DNA of 64,000 nucleotides from an uncultured Clostridia bacterium (GTDB lineage Bacteria > Bacillota > Clostridia > RUG12999): contig CAMNSU010000003.1 in NCBI GenBank assembly GCA_946555455.1, positions 900 to 64,899 of the forward strand. Reading direction: 5' to 3'. A program made the position numbers and the translations under genes. Positions 26,552-49,996 of this stretch are shown piece after piece. A model generated the notes under the pieces. It searched no databases and was not told the DNA's origin. It was given only the letters and a program-made list of their open reading frames with translations. Every line of letters starts with the position of its first letter. Positions within the stretch are counted from its first letter, which is position 1.

Positions 26552-28828
26552 TTACGTTTGCGATTTCCGGTAGTTGCCCGGCGTTGTTCCGACTGTTTTT
26601 TTGAACAGGCGGATAAATGAGGTGGTGTTGAGAAATCCTGTTTCCAGCGAAATATCGTCAATTTTTTTAGACGTACAACGCAGCAGTTCCTGCGCTTTTT
26701 CAATGCGCTTGTTGTTGATGTAGCCAACAAATCCTTCCGGCTGAATCGTTTTAAAAATTTTAGAGATATAGGGCGAACTGATGTGAAACTCCTGCGCCAC
26801 CATGTTGGCGCTGAGGTCTGCGTCGGTATAGTGTTCGTCAATATATGTCTTGATTTTCTTTGCCAGCGCCGCCGCCCCGCTGTCATTTGCGGCTTCGGTT
26901 TCCCGCTTGATTTTTGCACAAATGCTTTCAATCAAATCGTGGATACCGCTTTGAATGGCGCGGATATCAGCGGAACCGGTCAGTGTTAGCAAATAGATAT
27001 CGTTGACCTTTTGATTGTCGCTGCTGACGTAGTTTTGGAAATTTTTCGTAATCGTATTGATAAGGTCATGGATATAGTATTTAAACACAACAGGATTAAA
27101 GTTGATAGAGTGCGTGGATTGATGAATGAGGTCGTCAACAAAGGCACATGCCTTTTCCTGTTCTGCGTATTTAATGTAGTTGCATAATTGGCTGATTTTA
27201 TCAATTCTGAAAAACAGCGGGTCTGTGTGTTCAGCGGCAATATCCTCGTAAAATACAATATCGGATTCTCCTGTGAATTGGATATAGTCAATACAGGTAA
27301 ATGCTTCGGCATATGCCTTAGACAGCTCGAAAATATCGCCGTGCCATTCGCTGACACCAGCAGAAAAATCTACGCTGAAATGCTGTTTCATCAAAGCGAT
27401 AATTTCGCCCAGCACGCCGTCCAGCAGTGCGAAATCCTGCTGGGAACGCATGGCAATGAGCGCAATACAATTTCCGTAGCTTTCAAAGAAATAACTCTCC
27501 ATGCCTTTGTCGTCCAACAGTTCCCGACCGATGTTATCAATGATGTCCACCAGCAAATTGTAACGCTCGAAATCAGAAATGTTTTCATCCTGAAATAAAT
27601 CGGCGTAATGCTGCATGGGGAACAGAACAACTACATTCGGCGGAGAGGATAGTTCGGGAGCAAGATATTTCTTGACCGTATCGCCTTGGATGTCGGAAAT
27701 TGTGCCATTGAGTAATTTCGCCCAGAACGTATCTTTCAGCTGCCGGTTATGTTTTTCCTGAATGGTTTTTGTTTGCCGCAGCTGCTGCGCTGCATCTAAG
27801 ATAAGTCCTTCAATTTGCGACATTTCGTTCTGGTCGCGATATTGTGTGGGAACCTTCATTAAAACTTTCCGAATCGGTGAATATTGCCGATTAACAAGGA
27901 ACCGTATAGCAACCATACCCAATATCACAGCGATAAGCATAAGCAACGCCACGACATAAAAACTGTTAGAGGATGCATAATAGTAGGTTTTTGGCGTGTA
28001 GAACACAAAATGCCAGCCGGTATCAGGGGCGGAGATATAGTTTGCTATGGTTGTTTGTCCATTCAAATCAAACTCAAAAATGCCCTGTGGCTGCGTGAAC
28101 TGTTCCGTCACACCCTGCGACAGGGTGTCGGAAGACAGCGTTGTGGCAAGCAGCGTGTCGGAACGGTCAAATATTTCGTAGTTGATTTTGCTATCTGCAA
28201 TCATTTTGCCGAGCTGATAGCTAAAATAGGCGTCGCGAATCATGATAATCATGAATACATTGTCAGAGGACAGCCGGTATTTAAACGTGACATATTTCGG
28301 CGAAACGTCCGTCAAAGAACTAGTACCCTTGACAATTTTAAATTCTTCATAGGGCGAAGAGACCCATTCCTGCCAAGTGGGATAGTCAATATCCAGTCCG
28401 GCATAGACGGAATTGAAAAATTTTGCGTCCTCCTGTAACCCTTCCGCACTGCCAACCGTACCGGAGTTACCATAGTAAAAATAGAACTTATACGCATTAT
28501 ATAAGGTAAAATAATAGGGCTTGAGCGCCTCCTGAAACGAATGCACCATTTCAGGGGAAGCCTGCTGCGTTGTTTGCAGCGTGCGGAGAGCCAAAATATC
28601 CTGGTTGGTGGCAAGTTCAGACGCAATGGTCTTATAACGACCAAGTTCCAAATCAATTTGCTGTTGCACATTTTGATAGAATACATTGTTTTTTTGATTC
28701 AGTTCCTGACGGATATTTTTCATTAAATAGTGATATGTAATATAATTAAACACAACCGGAATGATGAGTACAAAGAAAAAAGAACGCGACCATTTGGAAA
28801 CCAGAGATGATTTTTGAAAAAAGTTCAA
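26552..28828 (-). CDS. membrane-bound AraC-family transcriptional regulator (YesS-like: TM anchor, extracytoplasmic sensor, AraC HTH)
   Basis: 758 aa with a TTG start after AAAGGAGG. Two TM segments (aa 15-35 and about 290-310) flank a roughly 250-aa extracytoplasmic domain. The C-terminus carries an AraC HTH (...ISSPYISKIFK......INNKRIEKAQELL..T...I..I....GF.N...F.R.FKK..G.TP..YR). Confidence 0.8.
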   Translation of the reverse strand: MNFFQKSSLVSKWSRSFFFVLIIPVVFNYITYHYLMKNIRQELNQKNNVFYQNVQQQIDLELGRYKTIASELATNQDILALRTLQTTQQASPEMVHSFQEALKPYYFTLYNAYKFYFYYGNSGTVGSAEGLQEDAKFFNSVYAGLDIDYPTWQEWVSSPYEEFKIVKGTSSLTDVSPKYVTFKYRLSSDNVFMIIMIRDAYFSYQLGKMIADSKINYEIFDRSDTLLATTLSSDTLSQGVTEQFTQPQGIFEFDLNGQTTIANYISAPDTGWHFVFYTPKTYYYASSNSFYVVALLMLIAVILGMVAIRFLVNRQYSPIRKVLMKVPTQYRDQNEMSQIEGLILDAAQQLRQTKTIQEKHNRQLKDTFWAKLLNGTISDIQGDTVKKYLAPELSSPPNVVVLFPMQHYADLFQDENISDFERYNLLVDIIDNIGRELLDDKGMESYFFESYGNCIALIAMRSQQDFALLDGVLGEIIALMKQHFSVDFSAGVSEWHGDIFELSKAYAEAFTCIDYIQFTGESDIVFYEDIAAEHTDPLFFRIDKISQLCNYIKYAEQEKACAFVDDLIHQSTHSINFNPVVFKYYIHDLINTITKNFQNYVSSDNQKVNDIYLLTLTGSADIRAIQSGIHDLIESICAKIKRETEAANDSGAAALAKKIKTYIDEHYTDADLSANMVAQEFHISSPYISKIFKTIQPEGFVGYINNKRIEKAQELLRCTSKKIDDISLETGFLNTTSFIRLFKKTVGTTPGNYRKSQT

Positions 28829-28912
28829 CTAGGATTCCTCCTTTGGTGACAAATTAATCATCATAGCCGCTTATAGGCTATGATGTGCTTTACTAAGCGA
28901 ACGGAATCAGAC

Positions 28913-29075
28913 TACTTTCTAGTCATGGAATATCCGGACACGTGCCGGATATTCCATACCTCTCAGCCGCGAGCGTTTCGATAGGAACGCTGCGAGAGCG
29001 GACGCGGCTGCATGGGGGTGTCCACGAGGGGGACGGCTTGACAGAATATTTTACATTCTGGAAGGAGTCCCCCTC
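28913..29075 (+). repeat. intergenic repeat element copy B (hairpin-rich core)
   Basis: It matches 17003-17167 with a 57-nt identical block plus a 31-nt near-identical block. A closing stem CACGAGGGGGAC...GTCCCCCCTCGTG encloses an interior with TTGACA and GGAAGGAG. Confidence 0.6.
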
Positions 29076-29399
29076 GTGATGTAAATAGTATATCATAAAA
29101 AAAACTTTTTTTCAATTCCACAGAATAAATTACCTGATTGTACATTGCGGAAAAACAGGTGAAAAGTGCCGATTTATCAAGGTTTTACGGAATCAGAGAA
29201 TAAAATTGGTAAATCATTTGATTAAAAAAAGTAAATTTTAAAAGGGCTAAAATAATGGGTGAAATAGGGGCGTATTCAAAATTTGTCAGCTGCAAATAAA
29301 ATTCGTAAATTGAAATCCGATAGGACACCTTGTATAATAAAAACAGAACACGGGCATGGGAGAAAATGTCCGGAAAAATCAGAAATGGAGGAGATTGGC

Positions 29400-48802: not shown

Positions 48803-48870
48803 AAAGTGGATATATTCTTGTCGCAAAATGAAAGAAAGCGGTTTGACATAGGAGAAGAAAATAATGTGCT

Positions 48871-48905
48871 TGACAGAGACGGTGAACTGGGATAAAATAG
48901 TCGTA
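48871..48905 (+). promoter_or_regulatory. internal promoter (TTGACA-17-TAAAAT) for the SGNH hydrolase gene
   Basis: TTGACA at 48871-48876, then GAGACGGTGAACTGGGA, then TAAAAT. The RBS AAGAGGAG precedes the ATG at 48935. Confidence 0.5.
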
Positions 48906-48934
48906 AAGAATTTGCAAAAGAGGAGAATAGCGGA

Positions 48935-49996
48935 ATGAAAAAGCTGGAAGAAATTGACCGTAATTTTGCGCAGAATAATGATAATACCGAGCTTGTTTTT
49001 CACGATATCCGTACAGAGCCGTTTCAAATTTATGGGTTATATGAACCGCGAAAGGAAGGCGCGTTCCGGCGTTTTCCCGAGGAGGTGGCACGGCGGACGA
49101 GTGAAAGGGTCTATGAGCTTCACACCATGACCGCGGGCGGCAGAGTGCGTTTCCGGACGGATTCGGCGCGTATTGCAGTGCGCGTTTCAGTGGGAACGAT
49201 TTGGAGCATGGCGCATATGCCGCTGGCGCTGAATGCCGGATTTGCGCTCTATGAAGTGCGAGACGGCGCGGAACGATATTTGAAGACATTTCTGCCGCCG
49301 GTAGATGTTGCGGGCAGCTATGAAACGTCAATTGAGTTGGAGGGGCAAAAAGAACGCGATTTGATATTGTATTTTCCCAATTACGGCGGCGTGGAGAAAT
49401 TAGAAATCGGGCTGCTGCCGGTCGCGTCGCTTGGCGCAGGAAGTCCTTATGTAAACCCGCTGCCAATTGTTTTCTATGGTTCTTCCATCACGCAGGGCGG
49501 CTGCGCGTCAAGACCGGGCAACGACTATGTGGCAATGCTTTCCCGCCGGCTGCACGGTGATGTTTTGAATCTCGGATTTTCCGGCAATGCAAAAGGGGAG
49601 ACGGCAATGGCGGAATATATTGCGTCGCTGCCCATGCGCGCGTTTGTGTTTGACTATGACCACAACGCGCCGGACGCCGACCATTTGCGGCGGACACATG
49701 AACCGTTTTTCCGTATCATTCGTGAGCGGCAGCCGGAGTTGCCGGTGGTGTTTGTCACGCGTCCCAAGCTGGAACTAAACGCGGAAGAAGTACAGCGGCG
49801 TGCCATTGTGTTTGAAACCTATCAAAACGCCGTCCGTGCAGGCGATAGGCATGTATACTTTGTCAGCGGCAGTCAAATGTTCGCCTGCGCGGGCGGCGGC
49901 GACTGCACGGTGGACGGGACGCACCCCAATGATTTAGGCTTTTTCTGTATGGCGGAAGCCATTGGCGTGGCGCTGGAGGAAGCGCTGCACGGATAA
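48935..49996 (+). CDS. SGNH/GDSL-type hydrolase (putative carbohydrate esterase / deacetylase)
   Basis: 353 aa. Block I GSSIT (IVFYGSSITQGG) and the C-terminal DG.HP motif (VDGTHPND) are present. An N-terminal extra domain of about 170 aa precedes them. Confidence 0.75.
   Translation: MKKLEEIDRNFAQNNDNTELVFHDIRTEPFQIYGLYEPRKEGAFRRFPEEVARRTSERVYELHTMTAGGRVRFRTDSARIAVRVSVGTIWSMAHMPLALNAGFALYEVRDGAERYLKTFLPPVDVAGSYETSIELEGQKERDLILYFPNYGGVEKLEIGLLPVASLGAGSPYVNPLPIVFYGSSITQGGCASRPGNDYVAMLSRRLHGDVLNLGFSGNAKGETAMAEYIASLPMRAFVFDYDHNAPDADHLRRTHEPFFRIIRERQPELPVVFVTRPKLELNAEEVQRRAIVFETYQNAVRAGDRHVYFVSGSQMFACAGGGDCTVDGTHPNDLGFFCMAEAIGVALEEALHG

What the first reader, a model, noticed from the sequence alone, without database searches (positions are those of the whole stretch)
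26552..49996. S-layer-tethered glycan-degradation locus (YesS-like regulator, LplABC importer, giant lectin/phosphoesterase protein, SLH protein, SLH heparinase II/III-like lyase, GH29 fucosidase, SGNH esterase)
Nine genes in one orientation, with a probable promoter near 29330 (TTGTATAAT) and a terminator at 50012-50059, are preceded by a divergent membrane-bound AraC regulator of the YesS type. The B. subtilis yes locus is regulated this way. Three consecutive products carry SLH domains, so the degradative machinery is displayed on the S-layer, a strategy typical of Clostridia and related Firmicutes. The combination of a heparinase II/III-like lyase, a fucosidase, an acetyl/acyl esterase and a GH88 unsaturated-uronyl hydrolase elsewhere in the window (13925-15043) suggests a target. 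That target would be a fucosylated, acetylated uronic-acid-containing glycan, such as a host glycosaminoglycan or mucin-type glycan, or an algal or plant uronan. The substrate is an inference.
Basis: inference. Interest (0 to 1): 0.6.

Follow-up and report, generated by a model that had tools for sequence, protein, structure and literature searches.

The report
S-layer-anchored acidic-glycan utilisation locus
This is a real but fairly ordinary sugar-harvesting gene cluster of an uncultured gut Clostridia bacterium: it pins a heparinase-III-like lyase and two large partner proteins to the cell surface, imports the fragments and trims them inside the cell, but its target sugar is unknown.

Summary
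The described genes are present at the stated coordinates. One count is wrong: eight genes lie on the + strand, and the ninth is the divergent regulator.

The lyase-like protein is a distant relative of PL12 heparinase III (family profile against 4MMH, E 1e-44). The PL12 catalytic Asn/Tyr/His align to N478/Y533/H662.

Three surface proteins recur together in orthologous loci and in at least three paralogous loci per genome of gut Clostridia:
- an aBig_2/F5-8C/SLH scaffold
- a ~900-aa protein with an N-terminal SLH domain
- a CBM96-lyase-SLH protein

Their variable neighbours keep the same functions: GH88, PL8 lyase, fucosidase (GH29 or GH95) and SGNH esterase. This supports a fucosylated, esterified glycan with 4-linked uronic acid. 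The identity of that glycan is unresolved. No sulfatase is in the window, and soil Paenibacillus relatives exist, so host heparan sulfate is not favoured.

A GH123-related β-GalNAcase gene next to the regulator probably belongs to the locus.

The ~900-aa SLH protein has no enzyme fold. It belongs to a large unnamed family (about 2,300 cluster representatives) that also sits in other Gram-positive glycan loci.

Verdict: a Gram-positive polysaccharide utilisation locus with some uncharacterised parts, of moderate interest.

The parts
13925..15043 (-). GH88 unsaturated glucuronyl hydrolase, cytoplasmic. It is unlinked (13 kb away) but is the expected partner of a lyase.
   Evidence: 1VD5 Bacillus sp. 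GL1 UGL, E 9e-68. Pfam GH88. No signal peptide. Homologues lie directly beside lyase paralogues in L016, L018 and L019 and within the locus in Paenibacillus L029, L032 and L033. Pfam GH88 genes sit in L050 and L052.
24674..26392 (-). GH123-related β-N-acetylgalactosaminidase-like enzyme, cytoplasmic. It has its own transcription unit next to the regulator and is a probable locus member.
   Evidence: PF13320, 85 bits against a cutoff of 23. 8K2J, E 8e-34, with the DE motif aligned (LDEP to ADEP). From PMC11087588 I infer 8K2J is NgaDssm, because the chain is named an OR/MR β-GalNAcase and that is the paper's description of NgaDssm. The same gene-regulator arrangement occurs in L014, at 62% and 39% identity.
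26552..28828 (-). Membrane-bound AraC-family one-component regulator with YesS-like architecture.
   Evidence: HTH_18 and HTH_AraC at residues 678-755 and a weak GGDEF_2 match at 429-514. Two hydrophobic segments. TTG start behind AGGAGG. A hairpin of -24.1 kcal/mol follows the stop codon.
29310..29338 (+). Candidate sigma-70-type promoter of the operon. A 16-nt direct repeat (29199-29214 and 29295-29310) abuts the -35 element.
   Evidence: TTGAAA-17-TATAAT, 11 of 12 matches. Repeat found. Both are consensus-level evidence only.
29400..30386 (+). ABC permease (LplB/UgpA-like).
   Evidence: BPD_transp_1, NCBIfam UgpA-like, multiple TM segments.
30405..31310 (+). ABC permease (LplC/UgpE-like).
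   Evidence: BPD_transp_1, UgpE-like.
31341..32969 (+). Extracellular solute-binding lipoprotein (542 aa, LplA-sized).
   Evidence: Signal peptide with a LAAC lipobox. No Pfam or NCBIfam match. Syntenic homologues follow the permeases in L006 and L015 (65%) and in Paenibacillus loci (23-27%).
32986..33017 (+). Perfect 13-bp stem-loop between the binding-protein gene and the giant gene. It has no U-tail. A role as an mRNA-stability or attenuation element is inferred.
   Evidence: -27.5 kcal/mol, z -7.6. Sequence.
33042..40706 (+). Giant S-layer-anchored scaffold (2554 aa). Order of parts: signal peptide; metallophosphoesterase head (CHB_HEX_C + Metallophos + FN3-like, residues 30-545); four copies of [~215-aa unnamed domain + aBig_2]; two more aBig_2 repeats; F5/8 type C; a seventh aBig_2 match; three SLH.
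   Evidence: Pfam. Internal repeats at residues 548-765, 886-1102, 1218-1433 and 1575-1791, 26-49% identical. The unnamed domain has no Pfam match even at E 10. All five metallophosphoesterase motifs are invariant: D123/H125, G157-D158, G205-N206-H207, H279, G312-H313-x-H315. AF2 model pLDDT 84.7; nearest folds are purple acid phosphatases and PhoD.
40786..43494 (+). Non-catalytic S-layer-anchored protein (902 aa): signal peptide, N-terminal SLH triplet, then an acidic ~690-aa chain of about eight or nine small OB-like β-barrels.
43526..47377 (+). S-layer-anchored PL12-like polysaccharide lyase (1283 aa): signal peptide, CBM96 ahead of the (α/α) toroid, the toroid, the Hepar_II_III_C β-sheet domain, a C-terminal β domain, a Pro/Thr linker and a C-terminal SLH domain (two Pfam SLH matches; residues 1120-1281 align to the Sap SLH domain). 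Predicted catalytic residues are N478 (44957-44959), Y533 (45122-45124) and H662 (45509-45511).
   Evidence: Pfam. SLH alignment to 3PYW. Family profile against the PDB: 4MMH E 1e-44 and 5JMD 8e-44, far better than PL35, PL15, PL21 or PL17. HepIII N240/Y294/H424 taken from PMC12088678. Conservation.
47438..48802 (+). GH29 α-L-fucosidase, cytoplasmic.
   Evidence: PF01120, E 1e-80. 6GN6, E 7.5e-56. No signal peptide.
48870..48898 (+). Candidate internal promoter ahead of the esterase gene.
   Evidence: TTGACA-17-TAAAAT, 11 of 12 matches, in the 132-bp gap.
48935..49996 (+). Cytoplasmic SGNH esterase with an N-terminal GxDLY β-domain.
   Evidence: PF14606 and PF14607. 4LHS, E 6e-34. Read from the sequence: S184 (GSS), G217-N218, D327-x-x-H330.
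50008..50056 (+). Intrinsic-terminator-like hairpin with a U-run at and just after its 3' arm, shared with the convergent ABC-2 gene.
   Evidence: -19.4 kcal/mol, z -3.7. Sequence.

Best explanation
**What it is.** A Gram-positive polysaccharide utilisation locus of an uncultured gut Clostridia bacterium. The closest genome is MAG ABMPRH_312_1. The nearest named relative is Ructibacterium (Oscillospiraceae).

**How it most likely works.**
1. A membrane-spanning AraC-type regulator senses an extracellular cue and activates the divergent operon. This step is inferred.
2. Three secreted proteins attach to the secondary cell-wall polymer through SLH domains. The SLH domains are shown; the attachment follows from established knowledge of SLH domains.
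3. The first is a giant multi-domain scaffold. It carries an F5/8C domain, four unnamed β-domains, many aBig_2 spacers and an intact metallophosphoesterase head.
4. The second is a non-catalytic chain of OB-like barrels.
5. The third is a CBM96-bearing PL12-like lyase. It would cleave the polymer by β-elimination at a 4-linked uronic acid, using Tyr533/His662 with Asn478 as the neutraliser. The residues are shown; the chemistry is inferred by homology.
6. The two-permease importer and its lipoprotein take up the unsaturated oligosaccharides. The ATPase would be encoded elsewhere (inferred).
7. In the cytoplasm the fragments are de-esterified (SGNH), defucosylated (GH29), stripped of β-GalNAc (GH123-related) and relieved of the unsaturated uronate (GH88, elsewhere in the window).

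**Target.** An esterified, fucose-bearing acidic heteropolysaccharide. I consider a microbial or plant polymer more likely than host heparan sulfate. The exact polymer is unknown.
For: **Domain content and topology.** Pfam and NCBIfam domains are. Signal peptides or a lipobox occur on the four extracellular proteins and are absent from GH29, SGNH, GH123-like and GH88.

**Lyase.**
- The family profile matches PL12 heparinase III over about 520 residues (E 1e-44).
- The three catalytic residues listed for 4MMH in PMC12088678 align to N478, Y533 and H662.
- In the 19-sequence alignment Y533 and H662 are invariant and N478 is kept in 18.
- In the 41 genome-derived relatives with the region present, Asn and Tyr are kept in all and His in 40.

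**Conserved trio.** The scaffold, the SLH/OB protein and the lyase lie together in orthologous loci L004-L015. They also lie together in paralogous loci L019, L020, L022, L023, L026, L031 and L041 at about 25-35% identity. Three loci occur within the same MAG.

**Recurrent partner functions.**
- GH88: L016, L018, L019, L050, L052 and Paenibacillus L029, L032, L033 and L037.
- PL8: L008, L013, L019, L050.
- Fucosidase: GH29 (the window's close orthologues L004/L005 and L009-L012, and L052) or GH95 (L013).
- SGNH/GDSL esterase: window, L013, L050.
- Sources.

**Other points.**
- GH123-like plus regulator are syntenic in L014.
- The operon has a promoter-like site and a terminator-like hairpin.
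- The metallophosphoesterase motifs are intact.
- The scaffold's head is a GDSL esterase in L050 and absent in L006. This suggests a swappable module that removes substituents.
Against: - No activity, expression or localisation data exist. Every function is by homology or synteny.
- The lyase matched heparinase III only through a family profile, not by single-sequence search. All characterised PL12 enzymes that I know of act on heparan sulfate, so the specificity cannot be transferred.
- GH88 is 13 kb away, among unrelated genes.
- No ATPase gene lies in the locus.
- The binding protein matches no curated family.
- The role of the phosphoesterase in glycan breakdown has no precedent that I could cite.
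- The SLH/OB protein is acidic (pI 4.7) and shows no recognised sugar-binding site.
- The promoter and operator sites are consensus matches only.
Confidence: 0.72

Rival explanations
1. The locus harvests host heparan sulfate or heparosan (or another host glycosaminoglycan or mucin glycan), as the PL12 relationship and the gut habitat would suggest.
For: - The best solved relatives are heparinase III enzymes.
- GH88 is a UGL of the type that acts on glycosaminoglycan disaccharides.
- PL8 genes (the hyaluronan, chondroitin and xanthan lyase family) lie in related loci.
- The GH123-like protein's closest solved relative is 8K2J, which I infer is NgaDssm. NgaDssm cleaves β-GalNAc and GalNAc4S substrates.
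- The source genomes are gut MAGs.
Against: - None of the window ORFs scanned against Pfam is a sulfatase, GH89 α-GlcNAcase, β-glucuronidase or sialidase.
- Fucosidase and esterase are not needed for heparan sulfate.
- The same lyase family, with GH88 and an LplABC-type importer, occurs in soil and plant Paenibacillus species (L028-L040).
- Each genome carries three or more diverged paralogous loci.
- The similarity to HepIII is remote.
Confidence: 0.15
2. The Hepar_II_III-like protein is not a depolymerising lyase. It would be a uronyl C5-epimerase or an exo-acting oligosaccharide dehydratase. Alternatively, the SLH trio remodels the cell's own envelope polymer or capsule rather than harvesting food.
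For: - The same fold and a Tyr/His pair also serve C5-epimerases. DS-epimerase 1 is described as resembling bacterial lyases (title and abstract of PMC8006597).
- An ulvan oligosaccharide dehydratase has been described. Only its abstract was seen (PMC8511951), so its resemblance to lyases is from my memory.
- All three proteins are wall-anchored.
- The SLH/OB protein resembles true S-layer proteins in being acidic, with an N-terminal SLH domain and a chain of β-domains.
Against: - The enzyme is extracellular and carries a CBM.
- It is co-transcribed with an importer and followed by cytoplasmic exo-enzymes.
- GH88, which needs a 4,5-unsaturated uronate, is the most regular neighbour of the family.
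- No glycosyltransferase or export genes are in the locus.
Confidence: 0.08
3. The genes are neighbours without forming one functional system. The giant phosphoesterase/SLH protein and the 902-aa SLH protein would be general surface or phosphate-scavenging proteins unrelated to the lyase.
For: - The metallophosphoesterase head exists as a free-standing secreted protein in Streptomyces and Microbacterium.
- A ppk-ppx pair lies just downstream.
- The SLH/OB family also occurs in loci without this lyase.
Against: - Gene order and tight spacing (31-79 nt) are kept across orthologues and paralogues down to about 25% identity.
- The head is dispensable or swapped while the scaffold-OB-lyase order is kept.
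- No terminator-like site was found between these genes.
Confidence: 0.05

Closest known systems
PL12 heparinase III (Pedobacter heparinus HepIII, PDB 4MMH; Bacteroides thetaiotaomicron BT4657, PDB 5JMD)
   Same: The (α/α) toroid plus antiparallel β-sheet region aligns over about 520 residues (E 1e-44 with the family profile). The Asn/Tyr/His catalytic set is retained.
   Different: - Similarity is remote and was found only with a profile.
- A CBM96 lies between the short N-terminal stretch that weakly aligns to HepIII residues 16-51 and the toroid.
- An extra C-terminal β-domain, a linker and an SLH domain are added.
- The organism is Gram-positive.
- The neighbours (fucosidase, esterase, β-GalNAcase-like) and the lack of sulfatases argue for another substrate.
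- The window protein reads H-N at the neutraliser where HepIII reads N-H. The preceding His is not conserved in the family.
Bacillus subtilis yes/lpl loci (YesS regulator; LplABC transporter). This comparison is from my own knowledge.
   Same: A membrane AraC-type regulator of about 760 aa with two TM segments sits next to a two-permease importer with a large lipoprotein. There is no ATPase gene in the locus.
   Different: - Direct homology to YesS or LplA was not tested here.
- The B. subtilis system handles rhamnogalacturonan with secreted, non-anchored PL11 lyases.
- It has no SLH trio.
Bacillus sp. GL1 acidic-polysaccharide systems (unsaturated glucuronyl hydrolase UGL, PDB 1VD5, working after extracellular gellan or xanthan lyases). 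The pathway context is from my own knowledge.
   Same: The window GH88 is a clear UGL relative (E 9e-68). The logic is the same: an extracellular lyase followed by a cytoplasmic UGL.
   Different: The lyase family differs. No SLH anchoring is described for that system. The gene organisation differs.
SLH-anchored enzymes and S-layer proteins of Bacillota (Sap and SpaA SLH domains: PDB 3PYW, 6BT4, 6CWC)
Bacteroidota Sus-like PULs with surface glycan-binding proteins, and Gram-positive PULs as defined for gut Firmicutes. This comparison is from my own knowledge.
   Same: A sensor-regulator, surface-exposed endo-acting enzyme, non-catalytic surface partners, an importer and internal exo-enzymes are encoded together. 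Paralogous loci are diversified within one genome.
   Different: There is no outer membrane and no SusC/SusD. An ABC importer is used. Anchoring is through SLH. The non-catalytic partners belong to unnamed families.

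Membership tests
CAZy PL12 (heparinase III family) | Significant sequence similarity to PL12 catalytic modules across the toroid and β-sheet domains | tested here: met
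   Profile of 19 family members against the PDB: 4MMH E 1.1e-44 (profile positions 350-872 against chain residues 94-613) and 5JMD 8.2e-44. Next best families: PL35 1e-6, PL15 1.7e-5, PL21 0.009, PL17 0.045. A single-sequence search found nothing in the catalytic part.
CAZy PL12 (heparinase III family) | Catalytic Tyr and His plus Asn neutraliser (Tyr294, His424, Asn240 in 4MMH) | tested here: met
   Residue list from PMC12088678. Seqres positions 216, 270 and 400 in the alignment pair with N478, Y533 and H662. N is kept in 18 of 19 and Y and H in 19 of 19. Conserved in nearly all of the 41 genome relatives with the region present.
CAZy PL12 (heparinase III family) | Formal CAZy/dbCAN assignment, and heparan-sulfate lyase activity | not testable with these tools
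   No dbCAN or CAZy library is available here and no enzymology is possible. I file it as PL12-like, not as a proven member.
YesS-type membrane AraC regulator | Two TM segments flanking an extracytoplasmic region, a cytoplasmic linker domain and a C-terminal double AraC HTH | tested here: met
   Hydropathy peaks at residues 9-36 and 284-315. GGDEF_2 weak match at 429-514 and HTH_18/HTH_AraC at 678-755. The Paenibacillus counterpart shows dCache_1 in the outer region; the window protein gives no Cache match.
YesS-type membrane AraC regulator | Sequence homology to B. subtilis YesS itself, and control of the divergent operon | not tested
Regulation needs an experiment.
LplABC-type (CUT1) carbohydrate ABC importer | Two BPD_transp_1 permeases plus an extracellular lipoprotein binding protein | tested here: met
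   Both permeases exceed the Pfam cutoff and resemble UgpA/UgpE. The 542-aa protein has a lipobox and conserved synteny.
LplABC-type (CUT1) carbohydrate ABC importer | Binding protein recognisable as an SBP_bac_1/8-type family member | tested here: inconclusive
   No Pfam or NCBIfam match at E 0.01 or better. Equivalent genes in related loci are also unmarked (L006, L049), while others carry SBP_bac_1 (L045-L047).
SLH-mediated S-layer or cell-wall anchoring | SLH repeat array (three repeats form the anchoring unit) | tested here: met
GH29 α-L-fucosidase | Full-length match to the family catalytic domain | tested here: met
   PF01120 E 9.8e-81, profile positions 12-345 of 345. 6GN6 E 7.5e-56. 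Linkage specificity was not tested.
GH88 unsaturated glucuronyl hydrolase | Full-length similarity to characterised UGLs | tested here: met
   1VD5 and 2AHF E about 1e-67 over residues 28-371. Pfam GH88 49 bits against a cutoff of 26.6.
GH123 and related β-N-acetylgalactosaminidases | Catalytic (β/α)8 domain with the Asp-Glu (DE) motif | tested here: met
   PF13320 85.3 bits against a cutoff of 23.1. 8K2J E 8e-34, with LDEP aligned to ADEP. The DE motif is described in PMC11087588. Only the C-terminal half aligns strongly, so its group within the family is uncertain.
SGNH hydrolase | Ser (block I), Gly, Asn and His (DxxH) catalytic blocks | tested here: met
   PF14606 E 7e-35 and PF14607 E 2e-25. 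GSS184, G217-N218 and D327-x-x-H330 were read from the translation.
Calcineurin-like metallophosphoesterase | Five metal-binding motifs (DxH, GD, GNH, H, GHxH) | tested here: met
   All are invariant in 28 sequences. Pfam Metallophos E 2e-13.
Purple acid phosphatase | Tyr metal ligand in motif II (GDxxY) | tested here: not met
   Motif II reads GDQIND, although purple acid phosphatases are the nearest folds (Foldseek E 6.5e-9). The enzyme is PAP-like in architecture but not a member.
Cellulosome-type complexes | Cohesin and dockerin modules | tested here: not met
   No cohesin or dockerin match in any locus protein.

The most novel reading that the evidence does not exclude
The 902-aa protein would represent a large, unnamed and architecturally uniform family: an N-terminal SLH domain plus about 690 aa of tandem OB-like barrels. 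The family has about 2,300 representatives at 50% clustering. On this reading it is a standard but unrecognised surface component of SLH-type Gram-positive glycan utilisation loci. It would be a glycan-capture or enzyme-organising protein that co-diverges with each locus, playing the part that SusD/E/F-like proteins play in Bacteroidota. Together with the swappable-head scaffold (phosphoesterase, esterase or none) it would define a modular S-layer 'glycan-processing patch'. The phosphoesterase head would then remove phosphoester-linked substituents from a polysaccharide.
Probability: 0.3. Interest if true: 0.65.

Novelty: new variant of a known kind. Interest (0 to 1): 0.42.

Why it matters
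How Gram-positive gut bacteria capture and process complex acidic glycans at their surface is far less understood than for Bacteroidota. This locus gives three concrete leads.
- A PL12-like lyase clade with an intact catalytic site, whose neighbours argue against heparan sulfate. It could extend the known specificity of PL12.
- A recurrent three-protein SLH module that is duplicated and diversified within genomes.
- A large uncharacterised SLH/OB-barrel family tied to glycan loci with different enzyme sets.

An isolate with a paralogous trio exists (Ructibacterium gallinarum DSM 107454, L020), so the questions can be tested. If nothing beyond the expected turns up, this is one more polysaccharide utilisation locus.

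Tried and rejected
- **Lyase against solved structures.** A single-sequence search found only SLH matches. A family profile was needed.
- **The ~215-aa repeat and the 902-aa core.** Pfam at E up to 10 gave only insignificant matches (TS_C 0.057, Laminin_G_3 0.48). So 'lectin' stays unproven for these domains.
- **OB barrels binding polyanionic glycans by charge.** I considered this, but the core is acidic (pI 4.7), so I downgraded it.
- **Phosphoesterase class.** The profile against the PDB gave only weak, mixed matches (PAP, SMPDL3, Rv0805, GpdQ, Mre11). The fold search favoured PAP/PhoD architecture, but the PAP Tyr ligand is missing. Substrate class could not be assigned.
- **RNA elements.** Rfam (gathering threshold) and a tRNA scan of the whole window found nothing.
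- **Literature.** Searches for DUF2264 and for SLH-anchored lyase systems found nothing relevant.
- **The 507-aa secreted protein beside GH88.** It has no homologue in any related locus, so I dropped it from the system.
- **One distant SLH/OB relative (L051).** It sits at a contig end in an unrelated context and was uninformative.
- **PL33 and PL39.** I considered both. No solved structure that I could recognise as PL33 or PL39 (for example 6JP4) appeared among the profile matches up to E 10.

Full report

Yes. ORF listing and Pfam/NCBIfam scans recover every component in the title, at the stated coordinates.

- The regulator (26552-28828, minus strand, 758 aa) has two hydrophobic segments (about residues 9-36 and 284-315). 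It also has a weak GGDEF_2-like region and a C-terminal HTH_18/HTH_AraC.
- The operon contains eight plus-strand genes, not nine.
  - Two BPD_transp_1 permeases lie at 29400-30386 and 30405-31310.
  - A 542-aa lipoprotein with a LAAC lipobox lies at 31341-32969.
  - The 2554-aa giant protein lies at 33042-40706.
  - An SLH protein lies at 40786-43494.
  - The CBM96/Hepar_II_III/SLH protein lies at 43526-47377.
  - GH29 lies at 47438-48802.
  - A GxDLY/SGNH esterase lies at 48935-49996.
- Gene calls on public contigs carrying identical proteins give the same set, with the shorter starts for the SLH protein (902 aa) and the lyase (1283 aa).
- The proposed promoter is the best sigma-70-like site of the region: TTGAAA-17-TATAAT at 29310-29338, 11 of 12 matches.
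- The terminator hairpin folds at -19.4 kcal/mol, with a U-run at and just after its 3' arm.
- A second promoter-like site (48870-48898) precedes the esterase gene.
- A perfect 13-bp hairpin (-27.5 kcal/mol, no U-tail) separates the binding-protein gene from the giant gene.
- Rfam and tRNA scans of the window were empty.

**2. Where does it come from?**

A scan of one genome per species found the closest match (97%) in 'MAG: Clostridia bacterium ABMPRH_312_1'. Matches of 76-91% come from other uncultured Clostridia, one of them from the mouse gut catalogue. Matches of about 48% come from Ructibacterium sp. and a water-deer rectum MAG. More distant ones come from goat caecum, Hadza gut and the isolate Ructibacterium gallinarum DSM 107454. 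Ructibacterium belongs to Oscillospiraceae in NCBI taxonomy. Relatives at 28-30% identity occur in about a dozen soil and plant Paenibacillus species.

**3. The lyase**

- A single-sequence search of the PDB saw only the SLH part.
- A profile of 19 family members matched PL12 heparinase III at E 1.1e-44 (4MMH) and 8.2e-44 (5JMD) over about 520 residues.
- This is orders of magnitude better than PL35, PL15, PL21 or PL17.
- PMC12088678 lists Tyr294 and His424 as catalytic residues and Asn240 as neutraliser for 4MMH.
- In the printed alignment these are seqres positions 270, 400 and 216. They pair with Y533, H662 and N478 of the window protein, numbered from the 43526 start.
- Y533 and H662 are invariant, and N478 is kept in 18 of 19 aligned homologues.
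- I extracted 42 relatives from the fetched genomic loci, one of them truncated. In the 41 with the region present, Asn and Tyr are kept in all and His in 40. The exception lies on a short contig.
- CBM96 (residues 249-349) lies between the toroid and a short N-terminal stretch that aligns weakly to HepIII residues 16-51 (first stretch, E 0.18). I regard the 'nested' reading as tentative.
- CBM96 was defined on an alginate lyase (PMC9971899). It accompanies many enzyme types, so it does not name the substrate.

**4. The conserved surface trio**

- Context look-ups and tblastn of the window proteins against all fetched loci show one recurring order. It is [aBig_2/F5-8C/SLH scaffold] - [~900-aa N-terminal-SLH protein] - [CBM96-lyase-SLH], usually behind the regulator, permeases and binding protein.
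- This order holds in orthologous loci L004-L015.
- In paralogous loci at about 25-35% identity (L019, L020, L022, L023, L026, L031, L041) the three genes are again adjacent, but the SLH/OB gene comes first.
- MAG ABMPRH_312_1 alone has three such loci (L009, L019, L041), and two other MAGs also have three.
- The scaffold varies in length from 1011 to 2855 aa.
- Its N-terminal head is a metallophosphoesterase in the window, L005 and L008. It is absent in L006 and is a GDSL esterase in L050.

**5. The variable neighbours and the substrate**

- In L019 the lyase paralogue is followed by GH88, DUF2264, a PL8 lyase and an AraC regulator.
- L013 has GH95, PL8 and a GDSL esterase.
- L008 has PL8.
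- L050 has GH88, a GDSL-headed scaffold, PL8 and two GH130 genes.
- L052 has GH29, GH88 and GH43.
- Paenibacillus alba has an AraC regulator with dCache, a binding protein, permeases, GH88 and a second Hepar_II_III protein.
- The window GH88 is 47-54% identical to the Paenibacillus GH88s and is a clear UGL relative.
- So four functions recur around this lyase family, partly by non-orthologous replacement (GH29 for GH95). They are an unsaturated-uronate hydrolase, a second lyase (PL8), a fucosidase and an esterase.
- The GH123-related gene beside the regulator (24674-26392) has the DE motif aligned to 8K2J, which I infer is NgaDssm. It is syntenic with the regulator in L014. It points to a β-GalNAc or β-HexNAc residue in the imported fragments.
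- No sulfatase, GH89 or sialidase is in the window. Together with the Paenibacillus relatives, this makes host heparan sulfate or mucin a minority hypothesis.
- The actual polymer cannot be named from sequence.

**6. The giant protein**

- Residues 30-545 (CHB_HEX_C, Metallophos, FN3-like) are 38-42% identical to free-standing secreted proteins of about 540 aa in Streptomyces, Microbacterium and Paenibacillus pini.
- All five metallophosphoesterase motifs are invariant.
- The AF2 model (pLDDT 84.7, pTM 0.88) is closest to plant purple acid phosphatases and PhoD. Motif II lacks the PAP tyrosine, so the protein is not a PAP.
- A profile search of solved structures gave only weak, mixed matches.
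- Four copies of an unnamed ~215-aa domain (26-49% identical) each precede an aBig_2 domain. They match no Pfam family.
- Only the F5/8 type C domain is a recognised carbohydrate-binding type. Its nearest solved match is a CBM32 of a C. perfringens GH89 (4A42).
- The head is replaced by an acyl esterase in L050. I therefore infer that it removes a phosphoester-linked substituent from the glycan. This is inference only.

**7. The 902-aa SLH protein**

- Pfam sees only SLH.
- An AF2 model built on 27 homologues (pLDDT 79.8) shows the SLH triplet followed by eight or nine small β-barrels.
- The core is acidic (pI 4.7).
- An exhaustive search with the core alone found 2,285 cluster representatives at E 1e-3 or better, and 991 at 1e-10 or better. 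Nearly all are 870-900 aa, with the core beginning near residue 205-220.
- Distant members lie in loci that encode permeases and a binding protein but carry other enzymes.
  - L045 has a GDSL esterase, Pectate_lyase_2 and an aBig_2/SLH protein.
  - L046 has a β-helix protein, CE4 and GH3.
  - L047 has an AraC regulator, Pect-lyase_RHGA_epim and CBM9/DUF5696.
  - In L047 and L049 the member follows the importer genes directly.
- The family is thus a general, non-catalytic surface component of SLH-type Gram-positive glycan loci. Whether it binds glycan or organises the enzymes is open.

**8. Mechanism and comparison with known systems**

- The best-supported model is a Gram-positive polysaccharide utilisation locus. 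An extracytoplasmic signal acts through a YesS-like regulator. A wall-anchored scaffold, partner protein and PL12-like endo-lyase work on the polymer. An LplABC-type importer takes up the fragments. Cytoplasmic esterase, fucosidase, β-GalNAcase-like enzyme and UGL finish the job.
- It works like known Gram-positive glycan utilisation loci, and by analogy like Sus systems.
- It differs in four ways: the SLH trio, the divergent PL12-like clade, the phosphoesterase head and the unnamed OB-barrel family.
- Membership in PL12 is supported by similarity and by the catalytic residues. It is not formally assigned here.
- Homology to YesS and LplA themselves was not tested.
- I found no paper describing this family or arrangement in the searchable library.

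**9. Verdict**

The finding is a new variant of a known kind. Its interest is moderate (0.42) and rests mainly on the uncharacterised conserved partners and the unknown substrate.

Noticed in passing
window 798-1730 (+) and 23378-24292 (-): Two DUF1848 paralogues lie in one 64-kb window (E 4e-106 and 6e-96). Neither is linked to carbohydrate genes.
   Followed up: no
window 28859-28885, 28925-28957, 29023-29078: Three strong palindromes sit in the regulator-proximal half of the 572-bp divergent intergenic region. Their arms are 10 bp perfect, 13 bp perfect and 17 nt at 88%. Their function is unknown; operators or RNA hairpins in the regulator's leader are possible.
   Followed up: partly
window 29199-29214 and 29295-29310: A direct repeat AATAAAATT(G/C)GTAAAT occurs twice. 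The second copy abuts the -35 hexamer of the operon promoter, so it is a candidate activator site. It could be a chance match in AT-rich DNA.
   Followed up: partly
window 32986-33017: A perfect 13-bp hairpin (-27.5 kcal/mol, z -7.6) without a U-tail follows the binding-protein gene. It may stabilise the upstream transcript or damp read-through into the surface-protein genes.
   Followed up: partly
window 33129-34676; proteins P0098-P0139: The metallophosphoesterase head of the giant protein (CHB_HEX_C + Metallophos + FN3-like) is a free-standing secreted protein of about 540 aa in many Streptomyces, Microbacterium, Leucobacter and Paenibacillus pini genomes (35-42% identity). Sources annotate it only as 'chitobiase C-terminal domain-containing protein'.
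   Followed up: partly
L050 5643-10001; L006 4092-7127; window 33042-40706: The aBig_2/F5-8C/SLH scaffold carries different N-terminal catalytic heads in different loci: a metallophosphoesterase, a GDSL esterase or none. The rest of the trio is kept.
   Followed up: partly
L019, L041 (same MAG as L009); L016/L025 and L018/L021 in two other MAGs: Each of these gut Clostridia genomes has at least three diverged paralogous loci (about 30% identity) built around the same three surface proteins. Their accessory enzymes differ (GH88, DUF2264, PL8, GH43-like).
   Followed up: partly
L019 15708-16889; L041 19024-20742: DUF2264 proteins (E 5e-107 and 8e-129) recur beside the lyase paralogues. No paper in the searchable library mentions this family.
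   Followed up: partly
window 11926-13449 (-): A 507-aa secreted protein with a weak Cu_amine_oxidN1 match lies next to GH88. It has no homologue in any of the fetched related loci.
   Followed up: yes
window 50058-51924 (-) and 52091-55539 (+): A GntR regulator plus an ABC-2 exporter pair, and a ppk-ppx (polyphosphate kinase and exopolyphosphatase) pair, flank the locus. Both are syntenic in the related contigs L002-L005.
   Followed up: no
window 44954-44959 (lyase residues 477-478): The window lyase reads His-Asn at the neutraliser position, as PL17 does (H200-N201). Its close orthologues read Asn-Asn or Ala-Asn, and the Paenibacillus relatives read Asn-His as in heparinase III.
   Followed up: partly
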